Positions 40,375-58,685 of a DNA stretch of 64,000 bases are shown piece after piece. The notes below the pieces were generated by a model, which saw only the letters and a program-made list of their open reading frames with translations, had not been told where the DNA came from and made no database searches. This DNA comes from Escherichia coli (GTDB lineage: Bacteria; Pseudomonadota; Gammaproteobacteria; Enterobacterales; Enterobacteriaceae), in assembly GCF_041886205.1 (NCBI RefSeq), contig NZ_CP169029.1; one strand, given 5' to 3'. Position 1 is the first letter of the stretch, and each line of letters starts with the position of its first letter. Position numbers and translations under genes: made by a program.

Positions 40375-42453
40375 TTAAATCAATGCCGATTTATCAATTC
40401 CCAGTCGCTTCATCCGTGACAGCAGGGTCGTGCGTTTCAGCCCCAGACGTTGCGCAGCGCCTTTAGGCCCGGCAACCACGCCGTTAGTTTCTTTCAGCAC
40501 GCGAACAATCAACTGATATTCATCTTCGCCCTCCTGAGCGACAACCGTTGCGGCAGGCGGCGTTTCAGGCTCCGGTAAAGCAATATCTGGCAATGACAGC
40601 TGCAGCACGTTGCCGCGTGTTAGCAATACCGCGCGCTCAATGACGTTTTCCAGTTCGCGTACGTTACCCGGCCACTCCATATTGCTCAAGGTGCGCAACG
40701 TCTCGGCAGGAATGCTGTCGATATTGCGCCCCAGACGACGGGCAATTTTGAAGGTAAAGGCTTTCGCCAGCAGCGGAATATCTTCCGGACGCTCGCGTAG
40801 TGGCGGCAGGTGGATCGGGAATACGTTCAGGCGGTAATAGAGATCGCTACGGAACTCTCGGTCGGCGACCATTTTTTTCAGATCGCGGTTAGTCGCGGCG
40901 ATTAGACGCACGTCCGTCTGAATGATTTTGTTGCTGCCGAGACGTTCAAACTCCTGTTCCTGTAATACACGCAGCAACTTCGGCTGTAACTCCAGTGGCA
41001 TATCGCCCACTTCATCGAGGAACAGGGAGCTTTTATCCGCCAGTTCAAAACGACCGATACGCTGGGCGCTGGCACCGGTAAAAGCCCCACGCTCATGACC
41101 AAACAGATCGCTCTCCAGCAATCCGGCAGGCATCGCCGCGCAGTTCATTTTGACCATGCGGCGATTATTACGCCCACTGAGATTATGGATCGCGCGGGCA
41201 ATCAGCTCTTTACCCGTGCCAGTTTCACCGAGGATCAGCACGGTACTGTCACTTTGCGCCACCATTTCAACTTGTTTAAGCACGCTGTACATGGCTTCGC
41301 TGCGGCCAATAATCTCGCCAAATTCACTATCAACATTGTTGAGCTGCTCGGTCAGGGCGAGGTTTTCATCAACCAGCCGTTCTTTCAGACGATGGATTTC
41401 CTGATAGGCGAGGGCGTTATCGACAGCGATTGCCACACGTTCGGCAATCTGGCGCAGTAAATTCAGATTGGTAGTGGTAAACACTTTCTCTTCGCATTGC
41501 GCCAGTTTCAGCACGCCCAGCATGGTGTCGCCAGACATCAGCGGTAACAGGCACAAGGTTTGAATCTGGTTGCCCCAGGTGTCGAACAACATGCGTTCAT
41601 AGGGGGCTAAATCGTCCCGCTCGTGGAGATTGATCAGCAGCATCTCTTTACTTTTGAACACGCGTTCGGTGAGGGTTCCGGCTTCATCGACTTCGCTCTG
41701 TTCGTGGGCGGGATGTTGTTTATCAAGATAGTGAGTGGAGTAGATGTTGAGTTTGTTTTTACGGTGGCTGCGTAAGACAATGCTGATATCGTCAATGTCG
41801 AAATAGTAATGGATTTCTTTGGCGACTTCGCTGACCAGTTCGTCCATATCCAGGCGGGAAAGCACCGCGTTGGTGATGGCGACCAGGATGCGGAAGTTAT
41901 CGCGTTCCCGGCATAACAACTCATAGTCGACATTGTTAACGACGCGACTCTGGATTTGTTCGGTGACGACAGAAACGATCTGCGTAAATGTTTGCAGACG
42001 ATTGAACTCTTTTTCGCTCCAGGGGCGATCGTCATAACGAATAAATTCACAGCCACCAAAAATATGCCCTTCCGCCGCCAGTGGCATCAGGCAATAGTGA
42101 CCAAATTTTGGGTATAGCCCACCTGCGGCCAGCTGCGGCCAGGTTTCACAAAATTCTTCGTAACTGCAATGCAGCGTATCAGGGCGCGACAAAATGCTGC
42201 GTACCGGACCGTGTGCCAGAACAGTTTCGTCTTCATATTTAATGGGGGTGTCTTTTTCACGCGATGCGTAATAAGACGCACGTTGAGTCTGCGCTTGCCA
42301 CAACACAATAGCCGCGTTGTCGGCGAGCGCAGAACGCTTTACCAGTTGCGAAAGAGCCTCACACAGCGAGGCCAGATCGGGCTGCTGCAATAGTGTCCGA
42401 GTGATGTCGAACAACCCTTGCTGTCCGAGATCACTCATCGGTGTATATGACAT
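40375..42453 (-). CDS. fhlA: Formate hydrogenlyase transcriptional activator (sigma-54-dependent)
   Basis: Start at internal Met (MSYTPMSDLGQQGLFDITRTLLQQ...), 692 aa; GAF domains, AAA+ sigma-54 interaction domain (GETGTGKE, GAFTGA) and C-terminal HTH. Confidence 0.95.
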   Translation of the reverse strand: MSYTPMSDLGQQGLFDITRTLLQQPDLASLCEALSQLVKRSALADNAAIVLWQAQTQRASYYASREKDTPIKYEDETVLAHGPVRSILSRPDTLHCSYEEFCETWPQLAAGGLYPKFGHYCLMPLAAEGHIFGGCEFIRYDDRPWSEKEFNRLQTFTQIVSVVTEQIQSRVVNNVDYELLCRERDNFRILVAITNAVLSRLDMDELVSEVAKEIHYYFDIDDISIVLRSHRKNKLNIYSTHYLDKQHPAHEQSEVDEAGTLTERVFKSKEMLLINLHERDDLAPYERMLFDTWGNQIQTLCLLPLMSGDTMLGVLKLAQCEEKVFTTTNLNLLRQIAERVAIAVDNALAYQEIHRLKERLVDENLALTEQLNNVDSEFGEIIGRSEAMYSVLKQVEMVAQSDSTVLILGETGTGKELIARAIHNLSGRNNRRMVKMNCAAMPAGLLESDLFGHERGAFTGASAQRIGRFELADKSSLFLDEVGDMPLELQPKLLRVLQEQEFERLGSNKIIQTDVRLIAATNRDLKKMVADREFRSDLYYRLNVFPIHLPPLRERPEDIPLLAKAFTFKIARRLGRNIDSIPAETLRTLSNMEWPGNVRELENVIERAVLLTRGNVLQLSLPDIALPEPETPPAATVVAQEGEDEYQLIVRVLKETNGVVAGPKGAAQRLGLKRTTLLSRMKRLGIDKSALI

Positions 42454-42526: not shown

Positions 42527-43537
42527 TTAGCATATACGCGGAAGCGGTTCGGCGTGTGGTAAATCGAGGGTTCGTTTCACGCCATACAGACCGGCAAGAC
42601 GAACACCTTTACGTTCCACCACTTCACCAATCAGCGCCGCGTCTTTCCCCAATGGATGGGAATGTAACGCTGCCAAAACTTGCTCTGCCGTGTTGCGTTC
42701 AACGGCGATCACCAGTTTGCCTTCATTGGCAAAGTTAAGGGCGTCCAGTCCCAGTAGTTCACAAACGCCGCGCACAGCAGGTTTAACCGGCAGTGCCGCT
42801 TCTGAAAGTTCAATACCGCAACCGCAGGCTGCCGCGAACTCATGAACCACCGCGTTTACACCACCACGGGTGGCATCACGCAGCGCTTTCACGCCGGGAA
42901 TGTCACGCAGCGTCTGAATAAGCGGCGTCAGCACCGCGCAGTCGCTGACCAGTTCGCCATCCAGCCCCAGCTGCTCACGCAGGTTAAGGATAGTCGCCCC
43001 GTGGTCGCCGAGTGTACCGCTAACCAGCAATACATCGCCTGCGGTTAGCGTCTGTGCGCCCCAGTGAATATTCGCCGGAATTGCGCCCATGCCAGCGGTG
43101 TTGATAAACAGTTTATCTGCCGCGCCGCGCTGCACCACTTTAGTATCGCCAGTAACGATGGCAATGCCTGCCGTGCGGGCGGTTTCTGCCATGCTGGTCA
43201 CTACGGCTTTCAGTGTCTCCATCGGCAATCCTTCTTCGAGGATAAAGCCACAGGAGAGATAGCGCGGAATAGCGCCACTGACCGCAACGTCATTCGCGGT
43301 GCCGCAAATCGCCAGCTTGCCGATATTACCGCCAGGAAAGAACAGCGGGTCAATGACGTAACTGTCGGTGGAGAACGCCAGACGGTCGCCTTCCGCTACC
43401 AGCTGCGCCAGATCAAGACGTGCCTGATCTTCCTGCTCTGCCAGCCACGGGTTGGCAAAGGCTTCCATAAACAGGCTGTTGATTAATTGCTGCATCGCCT
43501 GGCCGCCGCTGCCGTGGGCGAGTTGGATATTATTCAC
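42527..43537 (-). CDS. hypE: [NiFe]-hydrogenase maturation carbamoyl dehydratase HypE
   Basis: 336-aa ORF ending ...PRIC (C-terminal Cys characteristic of HypE). Confidence 0.95.
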   Translation of the reverse strand: MNNIQLAHGSGGQAMQQLINSLFMEAFANPWLAEQEDQARLDLAQLVAEGDRLAFSTDSYVIDPLFFPGGNIGKLAICGTANDVAVSGAIPRYLSCGFILEEGLPMETLKAVVTSMAETARTAGIAIVTGDTKVVQRGAADKLFINTAGMGAIPANIHWGAQTLTAGDVLLVSGTLGDHGATILNLREQLGLDGELVSDCAVLTPLIQTLRDIPGVKALRDATRGGVNAVVHEFAAACGCGIELSEAALPVKPAVRGVCELLGLDALNFANEGKLVIAVERNTAEQVLAALHSHPLGKDAALIGEVVERKGVRLAGLYGVKRTLDLPHAEPLPRIC

Positions 43538-44655
43538 GCTTCACTCTCCTGCTGACGATACTGATACCACGCGGCGCAAGCTCCTTCGGAGGAGACCATC
43601 AGTGCACCAAATGCGGTTTGAGGATTACAGGTGTTACCAAACAGCGGGCATTGATGCGGCTTACATTTGCCCGTTAATACCTCACCACAACGCGCGCGCG
43701 GGTCATCGCAGACCTGCTGCGGTGCCGGGCGGAAATGTGCTTCGGCATCGAATCGTTGATAATCCGGCGTCAGGTGCACGCCAGAAGATTCAATCACGCC
43801 TAAGCCACGCCATTCGCTGTCGCCGTTGACACAGAACACATCGGCAATCGCCTGTTGCGCCAGCAGGTTACCGGCATCCGGTACCACTCGACGATACTGA
43901 TTCTCTACCTTGCTGTGGGCCGCTATTTTCTGCTCCACCAGCATCACCACGCCTTGCAGTAGATCAAGGGGTTCGAAACCAGCGACCACCAGCGGACGAT
44001 GAAAATCGCTGGCGATAAAATTATAGGCATCAGTGCCGATAACCATACTAACGTGGCCCGGCGCGAGGAACGCGTCGATACCGTTATCCGGCTGTTCCAG
44101 CAAACTGCGCAGCGTCGGGATAAGCGTAATATGCTGGCAGAAGAAGTAAAAATTCTGCACATCGCGGGCTTTCGCCTGTTGCAGAGTGATGGCGGTGGTC
44201 GGCATGGTGGTTTCAAAACCTAAGCCGAAGAACACCACTTTGCGGGTTGGATTCTCCTGCGCCAGTTTCAACGCATCCATCGGCGAGTAAACGATGCGCA
44301 CATCGGCACCGCGTGCTTTTGCCTGCAACAGCGATCCCTGTTTCCCTGGTACGCGCATGGCGTCGCCAAAGGTACAGAAGATGACTTCCGGATGGCTGGC
44401 AATCTCCACGCAGGTGTCGATTCTACCCATCGGCAGTACGCACACCGGGCAACCCGGACCGTGGATAAACTCAACGTTTTCAGGCAGTAACTGGTCGAGG
44501 CCGAATTTAAAAATGGCGTGGGTATGACCACCGCACACTTCCATAATCCGCAGAGGGCGTTCGGCGGTGTAAGAGAGATGTGAAGCACGTTCGCGCAGAT
44601 GCTCAATTAACTGCATCACCTGTTCCGGCGCGCGATATTCATCAACAAAACGCAT
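43534..44655 (-). CDS. hypD: [NiFe]-hydrogenase maturation factor HypD
   Basis: 373-aa [24 protein letters not shown]... with CGGH and CPVC motifs. Confidence 0.95.
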   Translation of the reverse strand: MRFVDEYRAPEQVMQLIEHLRERASHLSYTAERPLRIMEVCGGHTHAIFKFGLDQLLPENVEFIHGPGCPVCVLPMGRIDTCVEIASHPEVIFCTFGDAMRVPGKQGSLLQAKARGADVRIVYSPMDALKLAQENPTRKVVFFGLGFETTMPTTAITLQQAKARDVQNFYFFCQHITLIPTLRSLLEQPDNGIDAFLAPGHVSMVIGTDAYNFIASDFHRPLVVAGFEPLDLLQGVVMLVEQKIAAHSKVENQYRRVVPDAGNLLAQQAIADVFCVNGDSEWRGLGVIESSGVHLTPDYQRFDAEAHFRPAPQQVCDDPRARCGEVLTGKCKPHQCPLFGNTCNPQTAFGALMVSSEGACAAWYQYRQQESEA

Positions 44656-44927
44656 TATTTTTCCTCGCCATACAACAGCGCGCCGACATCCGGCTCAACG
44701 TCAAACATGTTTTGTAAGGCGTCGAGAGTGTCGCGTGCTTCGGCTTCATTAATTACGCTCATGGCAAAGCCAACGTGTACCAGTACCCACTGGCCCACGC
44801 GCGGCTGACCGTTTTCATCGCAGCTGCCGACTAACGTTAAATCGACATCGCGCTGAATGCCGCAGACGTCGACTTTTGCCTGGTTGCCGTCAATGGTGCG
44901 GATCTGGCCGGGAACGCCTATGCACAT
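44655..44927 (-). CDS. hypC: [NiFe]-hydrogenase maturation chaperone HypC
   Basis: Start at internal Met giving [14 protein letters not shown]... (90 aa), the HypC N-terminal signature; overlaps the hypB stop. Confidence 0.93.
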
Positions 44928-45790
44928 CGCTGTGTCTCCAGCCAGTTCAGCCACTGGTCCATCCCTTCGCCGCTGGTGGCGGAAATAAGGATGATTTCAA
45001 TTTCTGGATTGACTTCGCGGGCGCAGGCGATGCACTTCTCAACGTCAAAGTTGAGATACGGCAACAGGTCAACTTTGTTGAGCAGCATCAGCGAGGCGGC
45101 GGCAAACATATGCGGATATTTCAGCGGTTTGTCTTCACCTTCGGTAACGGAAAGCACCGCCACTTTGTGTTTTTCACCGAGATCGAAGCTGGCCGGGCAT
45201 ACGAGGTTGCCAACGTTTTCGATAAACAGAATACCGTTATCGTCCAGTGGCAGACGCGGTGCGGCGTCGGCAATCATCTGTGCGTCAAGATGGCAGCCTT
45301 TACCGGTGTTCACCTGAATCGCTGGTGTGCCGGTAGCGCGAATGCGTGCGGCATCGTTCACGGTTTGCTGGTCACCTTCAATAACCGCGCACGGAACGCT
45401 GTCTTTCAGGCGCATTAAGGTTTCCGTCAGCAGGGTGGTTTTACCGGAACCTGGGCTGGAAACCAGGTTGAGCACCAGTTGCTTGCGGGCAGCAAAGCGC
45501 GCGCGGTTGCGTTCCGCCAGACGGTTATTTTTGTCCAGCACGTCAATTTCGACTTCCAGCATCCGACGCTGGCTCATGCCCGGCGCGTGAGTGCCCGCTT
45601 CGCCATGACCGTAATGCAGGTCGCCTTCTTCAGTCTGGCTGGGGGTAAATTCAGGCGCTTTAATGCCGGTGATTTTCATCTTCGGGCGTGCCGCCGGGGC
45701 AAATGGCGCGCTACGAAACGCGGAATGAGGGTTATGTTCATCACCCTCGATATACAGGTTGCCTTCACCGCAACCGCATGTTGTACACAT
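44918..45790 (-). CDS. hypB: Hydrogenase nickel-incorporation GTPase HypB
   Basis: 290-aa [13 protein letters not shown]... with N-terminal metal-binding Cys/His stretch and GTPase P-loop (GSGKTTLL). Confidence 0.95.
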
Positions 45791-45793
45791 CGC

Positions 45794-46144
45794 TCACTCC
45801 TGGTCTATTTCTATCCGCCGAATCTGTAAACCGTCGTCTGCCACAATCTGTAGCATGTCACCATGACACTGTGGACAGCGGCGGACGCGCTGGGTCAGTA
45901 GCGTCACATACTGTTGGCATGTTTCACACCAGCATTCGGCCTCTTGTTCTTCGAGGTGCAGTTTACAACCTTCCGCCACGCTGCCGCGGCAAACCAGATC
46001 AAAACAAAAGGCAAGAGAGCTGGTTTCGACACAAGAAAATGCGCCAATTTTGAGCCAGACCCCAGTTACGCGTTTTGCGCCGTGTTTTGCGGCCTGCTGT
46101 TCGATCAATTCCAGTGCCCGTTGGCAGAGGGTTATTTCGTGCAT
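45794..46144 (-). CDS. hypA: Hydrogenase nickel-insertion protein HypA
   Basis: Start at internal Met (MHEITLCQRALELIEQQ...), 116 aa; zinc-binding CxxC...CxxC. Confidence 0.93.
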   Translation of the reverse strand: MHEITLCQRALELIEQQAAKHGAKRVTGVWLKIGAFSCVETSSLAFCFDLVCRGSVAEGCKLHLEEQEAECWCETCQQYVTLLTQRVRRCPQCHGDMLQIVADDGLQIRRIEIDQE

Positions 46145-46174
46145 ATCGCCTCCCATTAACTATTGCCAGCTACA

Positions 46175-46191
46175 AGCAATAATTGTGCCAG
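46175..46191 (-). promoter_or_regulatory. Sigma-54 (-24/-12) promoter candidate for the hyp operon
   Basis: Minus strand reads cTGGCACaattaTTGCT, matching the TGGCAC-N5-TTGC consensus; correct orientation and distance for hypA. Confidence 0.65.
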
Positions 46192-46224
46192 TGTTGATTA
46201 TCTCTGCGGTGAATAATGTCGATG

Positions 46225-46262
46225 ATGTCGAAATGACACGTCGACACGGCGACGAAATTCAT
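46225..46262. promoter_or_regulatory. Candidate FhlA upstream activating sequence (hypA-hycA intergenic)
   Basis: atgtcgaaatgacacgtcgacacggcgacgaaattcat: TGTCGAAATGACA-type half-sites in inverted arrangement; the same motif recurs at 46877..46923. Confidence 0.5.
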
Positions 46263-46303
46263 CTTTAGCTTAAAAATCTCTTTAATAACAATAAATTAAA
46301 AGT

Positions 46304-46319
46304 TGGCACAAAAAATGCT
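46304..46319 (+). promoter_or_regulatory. Sigma-54 (-24/-12) promoter candidate for the hyc operon
   Basis: TGGCACaaaaaaTGCT, ~35 bp upstream of the hycA ATG; matches GG-N10-GC spacing. Confidence 0.65.
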
Positions 46320-46355
46320 TAAAGCTGGCATCTCTGTTAAACGGGTAACCTGACA

Positions 46356-46817
46356 ATGACTATTTGGGAAATAAGCGAGAAAGCCGATTACATCGCACAG
46401 CGGCATCGTCGCCTACAGGACCAGTGGCACATCTACTGCAATTCGCTGGTTCAGGGGATCACGTTATCGAAAGCGCGCCTGCATCACGCCATGAGCTGCG
46501 CGCCGGACAAAGAACTCTGTTTCGTCCTTTTTGAACATTTTCGTATTTACGTCACCCTGGCGGATGGCTTTAACAGCCACACCATCGAGTATTACGTCGA
46601 AACAAAAGATGGCGAAGACAAACAGCGGATTGCGCAGGCGCAACTGAGCATTGACGGCATGATTGATGGCAAGGTCAACATCCGCGATCGCGAACAGGTT
46701 CTGGAACACTATCTCGAAAAAATCGCTGGCGTTTACGACAGCTTATACACCGCTATTGAAAACAATGTGCCGGTGAATTTAAGCCAACTGGTAAAGGGAC
46801 AAAGCCCGGCAGCATGA
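46356..46817 (+). CDS. hycA: Formate hydrogenlyase regulatory protein HycA
   Basis: 153-aa ORF MTIWEISEKADYIAQRHRRLQDQWHIYCNSL...; first gene of the hyc operon. Confidence 0.93.
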   Translation: MTIWEISEKADYIAQRHRRLQDQWHIYCNSLVQGITLSKARLHHAMSCAPDKELCFVLFEHFRIYVTLADGFNSHTIEYYVETKDGEDKQRIAQAQLSIDGMIDGKVNIRDREQVLEHYLEKIAGVYDSLYTAIENNVPVNLSQLVKGQSPAA

Positions 46818-46876
46818 GCTGAGGCTTTGCCCGTTTTGCAGGCGTTACGCCTGTCTGGGGATGGGCGTGTCGATGA

Positions 46877-46923
46877 GTGTCGAAAATGACATTTCATCGG
46901 CATGTTTTCGTCAAAAATGACAA
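46877..46923. promoter_or_regulatory. Candidate FhlA-binding repeat motif in hycA-hycB spacer
   Basis: gtgtcgaaaatgacatttcatcggcatgttttcgtcaaaaatgacaa: two copies of (C)GAAAATGACA-type motif similar to that at 46225..46262. Confidence 0.5.
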
Positions 46924-46941
46924 TCACCTGAGGAATGCCTG

Positions 46942-47553
46942 GTGAATCGTTTTGTAATTGCTGACTCCACGCTCTGTATCGGCTGCCACACTTGTGAGGC
47001 CGCCTGTTCAGAGACGCATCGCCAGCACGGCCTGCAATCAATGCCGCGCCTGAGAGTGATGCTGAATGAAAAAGAATCTGCGCCGCAGCTCTGTCACCAC
47101 TGTGAAGATGCACCCTGCGCGGTGGTCTGCCCGGTTAACGCCATCACCCGCGTTGATGGGGCCGTGCAGTTGAATGAAAGTCTGTGCGTAAGCTGCAAAC
47201 TGTGCGGCATCGCCTGCCCGTTTGGCGCAATTGAATTTTCCGGCAGCCGTCCGCTGGATATTCCTGCAAACGCCAATACCCCGAAAGCGCCACCGGCACC
47301 GCCTGCTCCGGCGCGTGTCAGCACATTGCTTGACTGGGTGCCAGGTATTCGCGCGATCGCCGTCAAATGTGACCTTTGTAGCTTTGATGAACAAGGTCCG
47401 GCCTGCGTGCGGATGTGCCCGACTAAAGCCCTGCATCTGGTGGATAACACCGATATCGCCCGCGTCAGCAAACGTAAGCGTGAGCTGACCTTTAACACGG
47501 ACTTTGGCGATCTCACCTTGTTTCAGCAGGCTCAAAGTGGAGAGGCTAAATGA
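46942..47553 (+). CDS. hycB: Formate hydrogenlyase subunit 2 (4Fe-4S ferredoxin-type)
   Basis: 203-aa ORF with four CxxCxxCxxxCP clusters. Confidence 0.95.
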   Translation: MNRFVIADSTLCIGCHTCEAACSETHRQHGLQSMPRLRVMLNEKESAPQLCHHCEDAPCAVVCPVNAITRVDGAVQLNESLCVSCKLCGIACPFGAIEFSGSRPLDIPANANTPKAPPAPPAPARVSTLLDWVPGIRAIAVKCDLCSFDEQGPACVRMCPTKALHLVDNTDIARVSKRKRELTFNTDFGDLTLFQQAQSGEAK

Positions 47554-57267: not shown

Positions 57268-57526
57268 CGGATTTTATCCTGTTATCAGTAGGGTAGATGT
57301 AGTTGTTATCAGTCGACGTGACGGAAAAATGCCGATGCTGAAACGGAATTAAGAAACCGGTTTCACAAAATCATGAATAGTTGTCACTAAATAAGCAAGA
57401 GAGTTAATTGTTCATTTTTTATATTTGTGAAACCGGTCACCTGAATATTTTTCCCGCCGATTGCGCAAGGACAATCGGCAAACGGTGCAGTACACTGCGT
57501 TGATTGCGTGTAAAGGGATGAAAATG

Positions 57527-58537
57527 ATGACGACGATGCTGGAAGTGGCGAAGCGCGCCGGGGTTTCAAAAGCGACCGTTTCCCGCGTGCTTTCAGGTAA
57601 TGGCTACGTCAGCCAGGAGACTAAAGATCGCGTGTTTCAGGCGGTAGAAGAGAGCGGTTACCGCCCAAACTTGCTGGCGCGTAATCTGTCGGCGAAGAGT
57701 ACTCAGACGCTGGGGCTGGTAGTGACCAACACGCTTTACCACGGCATTTATTTTAGTGAATTACTGTTTCATGCCGCGCGAATGGCGGAAGAGAAAGGGC
57801 GGCAGTTGCTATTGGCAGATGGTAAACACAGCGCCGAAGAAGAGCGCCAGGCGATTCAGTATCTGCTGGATCTGCGCTGCGACGCGATCATGATTTATCC
57901 GCGCTTTTTAAGCGTGGATGAAATTGATGACATCATTGACGCGCACAGTCAGCCGATAATGGTGCTTAATCGCCGCCTGCGCAAAAATAGCAGCCATAGC
58001 GTCTGGTGCGATCATAAACAGACCAGCTTTAACGCCGTGGCAGAGTTGATAAACGCCGGGCATCAGGAGATTGCTTTCCTTACCGGCTCGATGGATTCCC
58101 CCACCAGCATTGAACGTCTTGCCGGGTATAAAGACGCGCTGTCGCAGCATGGTATTGCGCTCAATGAAAAACTTATCGCTAACGGTAAATGGACGCCCGC
58201 CAGCGGGGCCGAAGGGGTAGAAACGTTGCTCGAACGTGGGGCTAAATTTAGCGCGTTAGTTGCCAGTAACGACGATATGGCGATAGGTGCGATGAAAGCG
58301 TTGCACGAGCGCGGCGTAGCGGTGCCAGAGCAGGTGTCAGTTATCGGATTCGATGATATCGCAATTGCCCCCTATATCGTTCCGGCGCTCTCCAGCGTAA
58401 AAATTCCGGTGACTGAGATGATTCAGGAAATTATTGGACGGCTGATTTTTATGCTCGATGGCGGGGATTTCTCACCGCCGAAAACCTTCAGCGGAAAACT
58501 GATCCGCCGCGACTCACTCATTGCTCTTTCGCGATAA
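57527..58537 (+). CDS. ascG: LacI-family repressor of the asc operon
   Basis: Start chosen at MTTMLEVAKRAGVSKATVSRVLSG... (336 aa); in-frame ATGs at 57518 and 57524 are alternative starts; LacI HTH and periplasmic-binding-like fold; reading frame intact. Confidence 0.93.
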   Translation: MTTMLEVAKRAGVSKATVSRVLSGNGYVSQETKDRVFQAVEESGYRPNLLARNLSAKSTQTLGLVVTNTLYHGIYFSELLFHAARMAEEKGRQLLLADGKHSAEEERQAIQYLLDLRCDAIMIYPRFLSVDEIDDIIDAHSQPIMVLNRRLRKNSSHSVWCDHKQTSFNAVAELINAGHQEIAFLTGSMDSPTSIERLAGYKDALSQHGIALNEKLIANGKWTPASGAEGVETLLERGAKFSALVASNDDMAIGAMKALHERGVAVPEQVSVIGFDDIAIAPYIVPALSSVKIPVTEMIQEIIGRLIFMLDGGDFSPPKTFSGKLIRRDSLIALSR

Positions 58538-58550
58538 ACATTGTCATCAC

Positions 58551-58587
58551 ATGTCATCGTCACTAGTGTCGATGACATCGTTTTTCC
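58551..58587 (+). terminator. Rho-independent terminator downstream of ascG
   Basis: atgtcatcg-tcactagtgt-cgatgacat hairpin followed by cgtttttcc. Confidence 0.7.
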
Positions 58588-58685
58588 TGCATTACAGAAA
58601 TTAATTTCCTTAAATAACAGCAAATTAAAAACTGGCATGATTTGTGAATGTATCGGCGCATTAACTGTCATTGCTGGAGAATTTG

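What the first reader, a model, noticed from the sequence alone, without database searches (positions are those of the whole stretch)
46818..46941. Second copy of the FhlA-like motif in the hycA-hycB spacer
The 124-bp gap between hycA and hycB contains tgtcgaaaatgaca ... cgtcaaaaatgacaa, closely resembling the motif in the hypA-hycA region. From memory, an FhlA-binding site acting at a distance on the hyp operon has been placed in this spacer. The sequence shows the motif is conserved and duplicated here.
Basis: partly seen in the sequence, partly recalled or inferred. Interest (0 to 1): 0.3.

Follow-up and report, generated by a model that had tools for sequence, protein, structure and literature searches.

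The report
FhlA enhancer between hycA and hycB
The short gap between the E. coli genes hycA and hycB holds a deeply conserved cluster of binding motifs for the formate-sensing activator FhlA, a remote enhancer already described for the neighbouring hyp operon, so the finding is real but ordinary.

Summary
The window is the E. coli hyp/hyc locus. The 124-bp hycA-hycB spacer (46818-46941) holds TGTCGAAAATGACA (46878-46891) and CGTCAAAAATGACA (46909-46922), 31 bp apart, plus an unnoticed half-site TGTCGA (46868-46873).

- **Match to consensus.** Copy 1 equals the consensus of a published FhlA matrix and is the best hit in the 64-kb window. The second-best hit lies in the hypA-hycA intergenic enhancer.
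- **Related sites.** A 25-nt stretch of the spacer matches that intergenic enhancer at 22 of 25 positions. The core of copy 2 recurs about 104 bp upstream of the fdhF start site.
- **Conservation.** The block is present in all 80 related Enterobacteriaceae loci. TTTCGTCAAAAATGAC is at least 95% conserved in every column, more than any 16-nt stretch at the start of hycB. The rest of the spacer varies freely. 5318 of 5426 E. coli records are identical over 82 bp.
- **Target.** No sigma-54 promoter lies next to the block in any genus. The nearest are hyp (about -720/-750) and hyc (about +555/+585), so it must act by looping. No RNA structure or Rfam family explains it.

That hyp is the target rests on 1990s papers I could not retrieve. 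Already known; low interest.

The parts
46818..46941 (+). hycA-hycB spacer, 124 bp, transcribed as part of the hyc operon mRNA
   Evidence: ORFs and RefSeq annotation. Identical to K-12 except at 46855.
46868..46873 (+). Half-site A, TGTCGA, 10 bp upstream of site B
   Evidence: Exactly two TG[TA]CGA hexamers occur in all 81 spacers. Their spacing is 10 bp in 75 of 78 distinct spacers.
46878..46891 (+).
   Evidence: Matrix score 17.47 of 17.63, the best in the window (matrix). TGTCGA...GACA is kept in all genera with an inner gap that varies by 1-2 nt.
46894..46902 (+). TCATCGGCA, the right arm of an imperfect palindrome with half-site A (bottom strand reads TGCCGATGA)
   Evidence: Seen as the stem of the predicted hairpin. 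Only partly conserved across genera: TCGGCATG, TCGACAGG or TCGCCATG in many, absent in Klebsiella and Raoultella.
46906..46922 (+).
   Evidence: All 16 columns are at least 95% conserved in 78 distinct spacers. CGTCAAAAATGAC is exact in 79 of 81 and differs by one base in the other two. The same core, GTCAAAACTGAC, lies in the fdhF upstream region.
46924..46945 (+). hycB ribosome-binding region TCACCTGAGGAATGCCTGGTGA, with Shine-Dalgarno GAGGA at 46930-46934 and GTG start at 46942. Adjacent to the enhancer but not part of it.
   Evidence: Conserved across genera. A 17-19 nt insertion in Kosakonia separates it from site C.
46216..46261 (+). Intergenic hyc/hyp enhancer: ATGTCGATGATGTCGAAATGACA (46216-46238), then GTCGACAC and CGACGAAATTC
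   Evidence: Second-best FhlA matrix hit in the window, at 46217-46230. Conserved across genera. 22 of 25 identical to the spacer module.
46175..46190 (-). hyp sigma-54 promoter TGGCACAATTATTGCT, the presumed target of the spacer enhancer about 720-750 bp away
   Evidence: Best RpoN matrix hit in the window, 18.65. Sigma-54 ChIP-seq peak in Bonocora 2015. Conserved in all 80 loci.
46304..46319 (+). hyc sigma-54 promoter TGGCACAAAAAATGCT, an alternative or additional target. The spacer enhancer lies about +555 to +585 downstream of its start site.
   Evidence: RpoN matrix score 14.93. Sigma-54 ChIP-seq peak.
46829..46866 (+). Hairpin-forming 5' part of the spacer. Not part of the enhancer and restricted to one clade.

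Best explanation
The 3' half of the spacer (about 46866-46922) is a bacterial enhancer (upstream activating sequence) for FhlA, the formate-responsive sigma-54 activator.

It carries three binding elements on roughly one face of the helix. These are half-site A (TGTCGA), site B (TGTCGAAAATGACA) and site C (CGTCAAAAATGACA), at start-to-start distances of 10 and 31 bp.

Proposed mechanism: FhlA oligomers assemble on these sites when formate is present. The DNA loops over about 0.7 kb so that FhlA touches sigma-54 RNA polymerase waiting at the hyp promoter (46175-46190, minus strand). ATP hydrolysis then opens the promoter. This drives hypABCDE-fhlA, and so raises FhlA's own synthesis.

Shown here: the motif, its match to the consensus, its relatives at other FhlA-dependent promoters, its deep conservation, and the absence of any nearby promoter.

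Inferred or recalled only: FhlA binding itself, and hyp as the target.
For: 1. **Consensus match.** Site B equals the consensus of the FhlA matrix in PMC7658346 Table 2. That matrix was built from 13 sites taken from Skibinski 2002 and Leonhartsberger 2000. Site B is the top hit in the 64-kb window. The second hit lies in the intergenic hyc/hyp enhancer.

2. **Same motif family at other FhlA-dependent promoters.**
   - fdhF carries GTCAAACTGAC's longer form GTCAAAACTGAC about 104 bp upstream of its start site. Chance expectation is 0.03 matches in 601 bp.
   - hydN carries TGTCATC...GTGTCGATGACA upstream of its sigma-54 promoter.
   - hyfA carries GTGTCGAA...AATGACC upstream.

3. **Purifying selection on non-coding DNA.** The block is present in all 80 loci from about 20 genera, while the 5' part of the spacer varies from 6 to about 70 nt and is unalignable. 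The 16-mer around site C is at least 95% conserved in every column. No 16-nt window in the first 180 nt of hycB reaches this, and four-fold degenerate sites average 0.74.

4. **Spacing fits one face of the helix.** A to B is 10 bp in 75 of 78 spacers. B to C is 30-31 bp in 58 loci (28 in one more) and 18-22 bp in 21 loci, about one helical turn shorter.

5. **No adjacent promoter.** No sigma-54 promoter lies beside the block in any genus. The only strong ones are hyp and hyc, 560-750 bp away.

6. **Geometry of the other enhancer.** The intergenic enhancer sits at the usual distance of about -98 from the hyc start, with an IHF-like site between. It is only about -67 from the hyp start. This fits hyp needing a second, remote enhancer.

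7. **Distance is plausible.** Enhancers of this class are documented to work up to 3 kb upstream or 1.5 kb downstream.
Against: - No binding or expression data could be examined. The primary footprinting and deletion papers are not in the library.
- The published matrix may include this very site, so the consensus match is partly circular. My attempt to rebuild the matrix from E. coli 14-mers failed.
- Sequence alone cannot say whether the target is hyp, hyc or both.
- The change in B-C spacing is probably one deletion event in one clade. Within that clade it varies by plus or minus 2 bp, so it is weak evidence for helical phasing.
- Site C is conserved more strictly than a typical activator site. 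It carries an invariant C where the matrix prefers T, which hints at an extra constraint.
Confidence: 0.82

Rival explanations
1. The block is an FhlA enhancer, but it serves the hyc promoter from a downstream position (about +555 to +585), or serves both divergent promoters, rather than hyp alone.
For: The hyc and hyp promoters are only about 115-130 bp apart, so both lie at similar looping distances. Enhancers of this class can work from downstream (rocG, 1.5 kb). The spacer enhancer and the intergenic enhancer co-occur in all 81 loci.
Against: hyc already has a canonical enhancer at about -98 with an IHF-like site. As I recall them, the published deletion and in vitro data assign the spacer site to hyp.
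Confidence: 0.12
2. The conserved sequences work mainly at the RNA level. As part of the hyc mRNA they would form a structure or protein/sRNA site that controls hycB translation or mRNA processing between hycA and hycB.
For: The spacer is transcribed. The E. coli spacer RNA folds unusually well (MFE -53.8 kcal/mol, z = -3.95). Site C lies 20-33 nt before the hycB start in most genera. AAAAUGA of site C can pair with UCGUUUU in hycB codons 2-4, which are invariant at synonymous positions.
Against: - The consensus structure is weak: -7.3 kcal/mol, covariation term -0.25, one compensatory pair out of 16.
- The long-range helix has mean pair probability 0.44 and exceeds 0.5 in only 47% of 78 spacers.
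- There is no Rfam match.
- The favourable fold in E. coli comes from the clade-specific 5' hairpin and from the palindromic nature of the DNA sites.
- The same motifs occur in non-transcribed enhancer regions of fdhF and hyc.
Confidence: 0.04
3. The sites are bound by a regulator other than FhlA, such as its paralogue HyfR or another protein that recognises TGTC/GACA.
For: HyfR is a close FhlA paralogue, and the hyf upstream region carries related bits. GlrR recognises TGTC-N10-GACA.
Against: The exact match is to the FhlA consensus. The spacing differs from the GlrR site. hyf and hyfR are missing from many of the genera that keep the block (inference, not tested here).
Confidence: 0.02

Closest known systems
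FhlA upstream activating sequence of the hyp operon (UAS_hyp), as described by Lutz et al. 1990, Schlensog et al. 1994 and Hopper et al. 1994. Cited from my own memory; the papers are not held in the library.
   Same: Location between hycA and hycB. FhlA-type motif. Action at about 0.7 kb on the sigma-54 hyp promoter. This is most probably the very same element.
   Different: Nothing known to differ. This analysis adds the third half-site, the 25-nt similarity to the intergenic enhancer, and the conservation pattern across genera.
Intergenic hyc/hyp FhlA enhancer (window 46216-46261)
   Same: Tandem TGTCGA followed by TGTCGAAA(A)TGACA, in the same orientation, 22 of 25 identical. Conserved in the same genera.
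   Different: It sits about -98 from the hyc start with an IHF-like site between. Its internal gaps are 1 nt shorter (9 and 5 instead of 10 and 6). Its third element (CGACGAAATTC) is 24 bp from site B rather than 31, and is less conserved.
fdhF upstream activating sequence (K-12, L083 about 300-325)
   Same: Core GTCAAAACTGAC matches site C (GTCAAAAATGAC) at 11 of 12 positions. Flanking TTTCGTCA repeats are also shared.
   Different: It lies at the canonical distance of about -104 from its own promoter and is not inside another operon.
NorR three-site enhancer at norVW, and NtrC enhancers at glnA
   Same: Several dyad sites that nucleate an oligomeric sigma-54 activator. Such enhancers work over hundreds to thousands of base pairs by looping.
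   Different: Different proteins and motifs (NorR recognises GT-N7-AC). That three FhlA dimers form a hexamer here is an analogy only.

Membership tests
FhlA-dependent enhancer (UAS) of the formate regulon | Sequence matches the FhlA binding consensus | tested here: met
   Site B equals the consensus TG(T/A)C(A/G)A(A/T)(A/G)ATG(A/T)CA and scores 17.47 of 17.63. Site C scores 12.2 (forward) and 11.85 (reverse). Caveat: the matrix may include this site.
FhlA-dependent enhancer (UAS) of the formate regulon | Motif shared with independently located FhlA-dependent promoters (fdhF, hyc, hydN, hyf) | tested here: met
   fdhF has GTCAAAACTGAC at about -104. The hyc enhancer is 22 of 25 identical. Related elements lie upstream of hydN and hyf.
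FhlA-dependent enhancer (UAS) of the formate regulon | A sigma-54 (-24/-12) promoter within looping distance | tested here: met
   The hyp promoter (46175-46190, minus strand) scores 18.65 and the hyc promoter (46304-46319, plus strand) scores 14.93. Both have sigma-54 ChIP-seq peaks. None lies closer in any genus.
FhlA-dependent enhancer (UAS) of the formate regulon | Multiple sites arranged on one face of the helix | tested here: met
   Spacings are 10 bp and 30-31 bp, or 18-22 bp in one clade. This is consistent with phasing but is not proof.
FhlA-dependent enhancer (UAS) of the formate regulon | Evolutionary conservation beyond the neutral level | tested here: met
   81 of 81 spacers carry the block. 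The 16-mer is at least 95% conserved per column, against 0.74 at four-fold degenerate sites. 5318 of 5426 E. coli records are identical.
FhlA-dependent enhancer (UAS) of the formate regulon | Physical binding by FhlA (footprint, gel shift, ChIP) | not testable with these tools
   The primary papers are not held. No FhlA ChIP data set was found in the library.
FhlA-dependent enhancer (UAS) of the formate regulon | Required for formate- and FhlA-dependent activation of the hyp promoter | not testable with these tools
   This needs reporter or deletion experiments. It rests on recalled literature only.
Structured cis-regulatory RNA in the hyc mRNA | Conserved secondary structure supported by compensatory changes | tested here: not met
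   RNAalifold gives -7.3 kcal/mol with a covariation term of -0.25 and 1 of 16 pairs compensatory. The candidate long-range helix is predicted in only 47% of spacers. There is no Rfam family.

The most novel reading that the evidence does not exclude
Site C (TTTCGTCAAAAATGAC) is held more tightly than the neighbouring coding sequence, and more tightly than site B. It keeps an invariant non-consensus C. It may therefore carry a second function on top of FhlA binding. One possibility is an mRNA element that, together with the TCACC...GGTGA hairpin around the hycB ribosome-binding site, sets HycB translation. Another is an FhlA roadblock inside the hyc transcription unit that tunes the ratio of HycA (the anti-activator) to the structural Hyc proteins.
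Probability: 0.1. Interest if true: 0.45.

Novelty: already known. Interest (0 to 1): 0.15.

Why it matters
It is a clean natural example of a bacterial enhancer that sits inside one operon and acts over about 0.7 kb on the divergent neighbouring operon. Because fhlA is the last gene of that operon, the element also closes a positive feedback loop on the activator.

Practically, anyone who deletes or replaces hycA, or rebuilds the start of the hyc operon for hydrogen or formate production, risks removing this element. One example is the fdhF::hycB fusion and promoter-swap strains described. Losing it could change hyp and fhlA expression.

The cross-genus footprint found here gives exact bases to spare or to mutate: half-site A, site B, and the near-invariant 16-mer around site C. 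None of this changes current understanding.

Tried and rejected
1. **Retrieving the primary evidence.** Schlensog 1994, Hopper 1994, Hopper and Böck 1995, Skibinski 2002, the EcoSal review and Sanchez-Torres 2009 were all not held. Nine full-text searches found no open paper that states where the hyp enhancer lies.

2. **Rebuilding the published matrix.** I tried to reproduce the 13-site FhlA matrix from gapless 14-mers of the five E. coli regulatory regions, to prove that the spacer sites are among them. The integer programme is infeasible, so the matrix was built from gapped or non-E. coli sites. Circularity is neither proven nor excluded.

3. **Internal FhlA-dependent promoter for hycB.** Rejected. 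The best sigma-54 score within 400 bp downstream of the block is at most 6.5 in every genus. Further into the E. coli window it reaches only 9.0-9.7.

4. **Antisense sigma-54 promoter just left of the enhancer.** There is a weak GG-N10-GC match at 46837-46852 (minus strand), scoring 8.3 here and 12.1 in some Escherichia lineages. It lies in the clade-specific hairpin, is absent outside Escherichia, and is only about 16 bp from the sites.

5. **Sigma-70 promoter or intrinsic terminator in the spacer.** None found.

6. **RNA structure or Rfam family.** Not supported.

7. **Mis-typed search pattern.** My first pattern search had one A too many. It was corrected.

8. **Excess of one-mismatch hits to GTCRAAANTGAC.** There are 11 against 2.4 expected. 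Four fall in hycB-hycF and four elsewhere in the window. The few I translated read as in-frame codon strings such as GTC GAA ATT GAC. I take them as a coding-composition effect, not as extra sites.

Full report
**Identity of the window.** The region is the E. coli hyp/hyc locus. A 901-bp query (46100-47000) matches 5425 of 5426 complete E. coli genomes at 95% identity or better. It differs from K-12 MG1655 at four bases, of which only one (46855) is in the spacer. A 100% identical RefSeq record gives the following map:

| Gene | Coordinates | Strand |
|---|---|---|
| fhlA | 40375-42453 | - |
| hypE to hypB | 42527-45790 | - |
| hypA | 45794-46144 | - |
| hycA | 46356-46817 | + |
| hycB | 46942-47553 | + (GTG start) |
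| hycC to hycI | to 54218 | + |
| ascB, ascF | | - |
| ascG, hydN, hypF | | + |

**The observation.** The 124-bp spacer holds TGTCGAAAATGACA at 46878-46891 and CGTCAAAAATGACA at 46909-46922. The repeat finder reports them as a two-copy direct repeat, 12 of 13 identical and 31 bp apart. There is also a TGTCGA half-site at 46868-46873, 10 bp upstream of copy 1.

The left part of the block, GTGTCGATGAGTGTCGAAAATGACA (46867-46891), aligns with the intergenic ATGTCGATGA-TGTCGAAA-TGACA (46216-46238). The two share 22 of 25 positions, with two one-base gaps.

**Is it an FhlA-type motif?** An open paper on Proteus FhlA prints a 14-position count matrix. It was compiled from 13 FhlA sites in Skibinski 2002 and Leonhartsberger 2000, with consensus TG(T/A)C(A/G)A(A/T)(A/G)ATG(A/T)CA.

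- Copy 1 equals this consensus. It scores 17.47 of a possible 17.63, the best position on either strand of the 64-kb window.
- The second-best position (16.09) is in the intergenic enhancer.
- Copy 2 ranks fifth (12.2).
- In 100 simulated windows the maximum averaged 13.9 and never exceeded 17.3.

The matrix may itself contain this site. I could not settle that, because the matrix cannot be rebuilt from gapless E. coli 14-mers.

Independent support comes from other FhlA-dependent promoters.

- **fdhF (K-12).** The upstream region holds CGTCACGTCAAAACTGACGACA...TTTTTCGTCA. Its core, GTCAAAACTGAC, lies about 104 bp before the start site. It differs from copy 2 at one base, where 0.03 chance matches are expected in the 601 bp searched.
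- **hydN.** The upstream region (58541-58580) holds TGTCATC...GTGTCGATGACA ahead of its sigma-54 promoter.
- **hyfA.** The upstream region holds GTGTCGAA and AATGACC.

**Comparative footprint.** A scan of one genome per species with a HycA alignment returned 80 loci. They come from Escherichia, Salmonella, Citrobacter, Klebsiella, Raoultella, Enterobacter, Lelliottia, Kluyvera, Kosakonia, Pseudocitrobacter and other genera. All have the hypA / hycA-hycB arrangement.

Spacer length ranges from 67 to 146 bp. The part next to the hycA stop codon is unalignable and varies from 6 to about 70 nt. The block GTGTCGA-N3/4-GTGTCGAAA(A)TGACA...TTTCGTCAAAAATGAC, followed by the hycB ribosome-binding site, is present in every locus.

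- Every spacer has exactly two TG[TA]CGA hexamers, 10 bp apart in 75 of 78 distinct sequences.
- The 16-mer TTTCGTCAAAAATGAC is at least 95% conserved in each of its 16 columns.
- No 16-nt window in the first 180 nt of the well-conserved hycB gene reaches that level.
- Four-fold degenerate sites in hycB have a mean major-allele frequency of 0.74.

The distance from site B to site C falls into two classes. It is 30-31 bp in 58 loci (28 bp in one more) and 18-22 bp in 21 loci of the Enterobacter/Lelliottia group. The difference is about one helical turn. This fits sites that must face the same side of the DNA. It is probably a single evolutionary event, so it carries limited weight.

Within E. 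coli, 5318 of 5426 records are identical over 46860-46941. The cryptic Escherichia clades and E. albertii keep both motifs unchanged.

**What can it act on?** A matrix for sigma-54 promoters from the same paper gives these top hits in the window:

| Site | Coordinates | Strand | Score |
|---|---|---|---|
| hyp promoter | 46175-46190 | - | 18.65 (best in window) |
| hyc promoter | 46304-46319 | + | 14.93 |

Both coincide with published sigma-54 ChIP-seq peaks, and both are conserved across the genera.

Next to the block there is no sigma-54 promoter in any genus. The mean best score is 4.3 to the left and 2.0 to the right, no better than wrong-orientation controls. The block therefore lies about 720 and 750 bp upstream of the hyp start site, or about 555 and 585 bp downstream of the hyc start site.

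Activators of this class usually bind 70-150 bp upstream. They are documented to work from 1.5 kb downstream and 3 kb upstream.

The intergenic enhancer sits about 98 bp upstream of the hyc start, with an IHF-like site (46286-46298) between them. This is the same distance as at fdhF. It is only about 67 bp from the hyp start. That geometry gives a reason why hyp should need a second, remote enhancer. This step is inference.

The assignment of the spacer site to hyp agrees with my recollection of Lutz et al. 1990, Schlensog et al. 1994 and Hopper et al. 1994. None of those papers could be read here.

**Rivals.**

- **RNA-level element.** This was considered because the spacer is transcribed and the E. 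coli spacer RNA folds well (z = -3.95). That stability comes from a clade-specific 5' hairpin and from the palindromic DNA sites. The consensus structure over 25 genera is weak, with one compensatory pair. A candidate helix between site C and hycB codons 2-4 is predicted in fewer than half of the spacers. No Rfam family matches.
- **Local promoters or terminators.** No sigma-70 promoter or terminator is called in the spacer. An internal promoter for hycB and an antisense promoter are not supported.
- **Which promoter is served.** Action on hyc, or on both promoters, cannot be excluded by sequence.

**Verdict.** The element is an already described enhancer of the formate regulon.

The one loose end is the unusually strict conservation of site C, which could hide a second function. 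I give that about a 10% chance.

Noticed in passing
window 46425-46440 (+), inside hycA: A sigma-54-like site, TGGCACATCTACTGCA, scores 15.0. This is second best in the whole window and above the real hyc promoter. It falls on codons W24-H-I-Y-C28-N. Across 81 loci the essential GC becomes GT in about 20, and only 44 score 12 or more. It is not in the ChIP-seq table text of Bonocora 2015. It is probably a by-product of conserved codons.
   Followed up: partly
window 46829-46866: The 5' half of the spacer forms a hairpin: GCCCGUUUUG[CAGGCGUUACGCCUG]UCUGGGGAUGGGC. Salmonella and several Citrobacter keep the outer GCCC/GGGC flanks but carry a different, longer inner hairpin (Intestinirhabdus carries another inner hairpin with altered flanks). 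Klebsiella, Enterobacter and Kluyvera lack the segment altogether. Its function is unknown. It could be an mRNA stability or processing element between hycA and hycB.
   Followed up: partly
window 46837-46852 (-): A weak GG-N10-GC sigma-54-like match (AGGCGTAACGCCTGCA, score 8.3) lies inside that hairpin. The variant AGGCATGACGCCTGCA in some Escherichia lineages scores 12.1. It is only about 16 bp from the FhlA sites and is not conserved outside Escherichia.
   Followed up: partly
window 46924-46945: TCACC...GGTGA can pair so that the hycB Shine-Dalgarno (GAGGA) and the GTG start codon sit in a small hairpin. Lelliottia and Huaxiibacter have a different pairing (GUCC/GGAC) that also covers the Shine-Dalgarno. 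hycB codons 3-4 (CGT TTT) are invariant at synonymous positions in the 25 representative loci aligned.
   Followed up: partly
window 46164-46190 and 46304-46330: The two divergent sigma-54 promoters form a 27-nt inverted repeat, 81% complementary. It extends past the -12 element to a second CTGGCA on each side. The extension is not conserved in other genera.
   Followed up: no
window 45542-45553 (-), inside hypB: This is the third exact match to the core GTCRAAANTGAC (GTCGAAATTGAC), about 620 bp downstream of the hyp start. It encodes V-E-I-D and is kept in only about 12 of 80 loci, so it is probably chance.
   Followed up: partly
window 58541-58580 and 58632-58648: The hydN-hypF regulatory region holds a cluster of TGTCA/TGTCG elements (TTGTCATCACATGTCATCGTCACTAGTGTCGATGACATCG). 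They lie about 50-90 bp upstream of the sigma-54 promoter CTGGCATGATTTGTGAA, and start directly after the ascG stop codon.
   Followed up: partly
window 57519-57532 and 57919-57932 (ascG): Two FhlA-matrix hits score 13.7 and 13.4 (third and fourth in the window). One is at the ascG start and one is inside ascG. They were not examined for conservation.
   Followed up: no
window 46249-46261: The intergenic enhancer has a possible third element, GCGACGAAATTCA. It resembles site C and lies 24 bp after its site B. This suggests the same A-B-C layout as in the spacer, in a more compact form.
   Followed up: no
record NZ_CP146656.1 (hit H8): A 32.8-kb record holds the hypA-hycA-hycB region, and one search counts one match on a plasmid (that count was not tied to this record). 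If it is this record, it is probably an unplaced chromosomal fragment.
   Followed up: no
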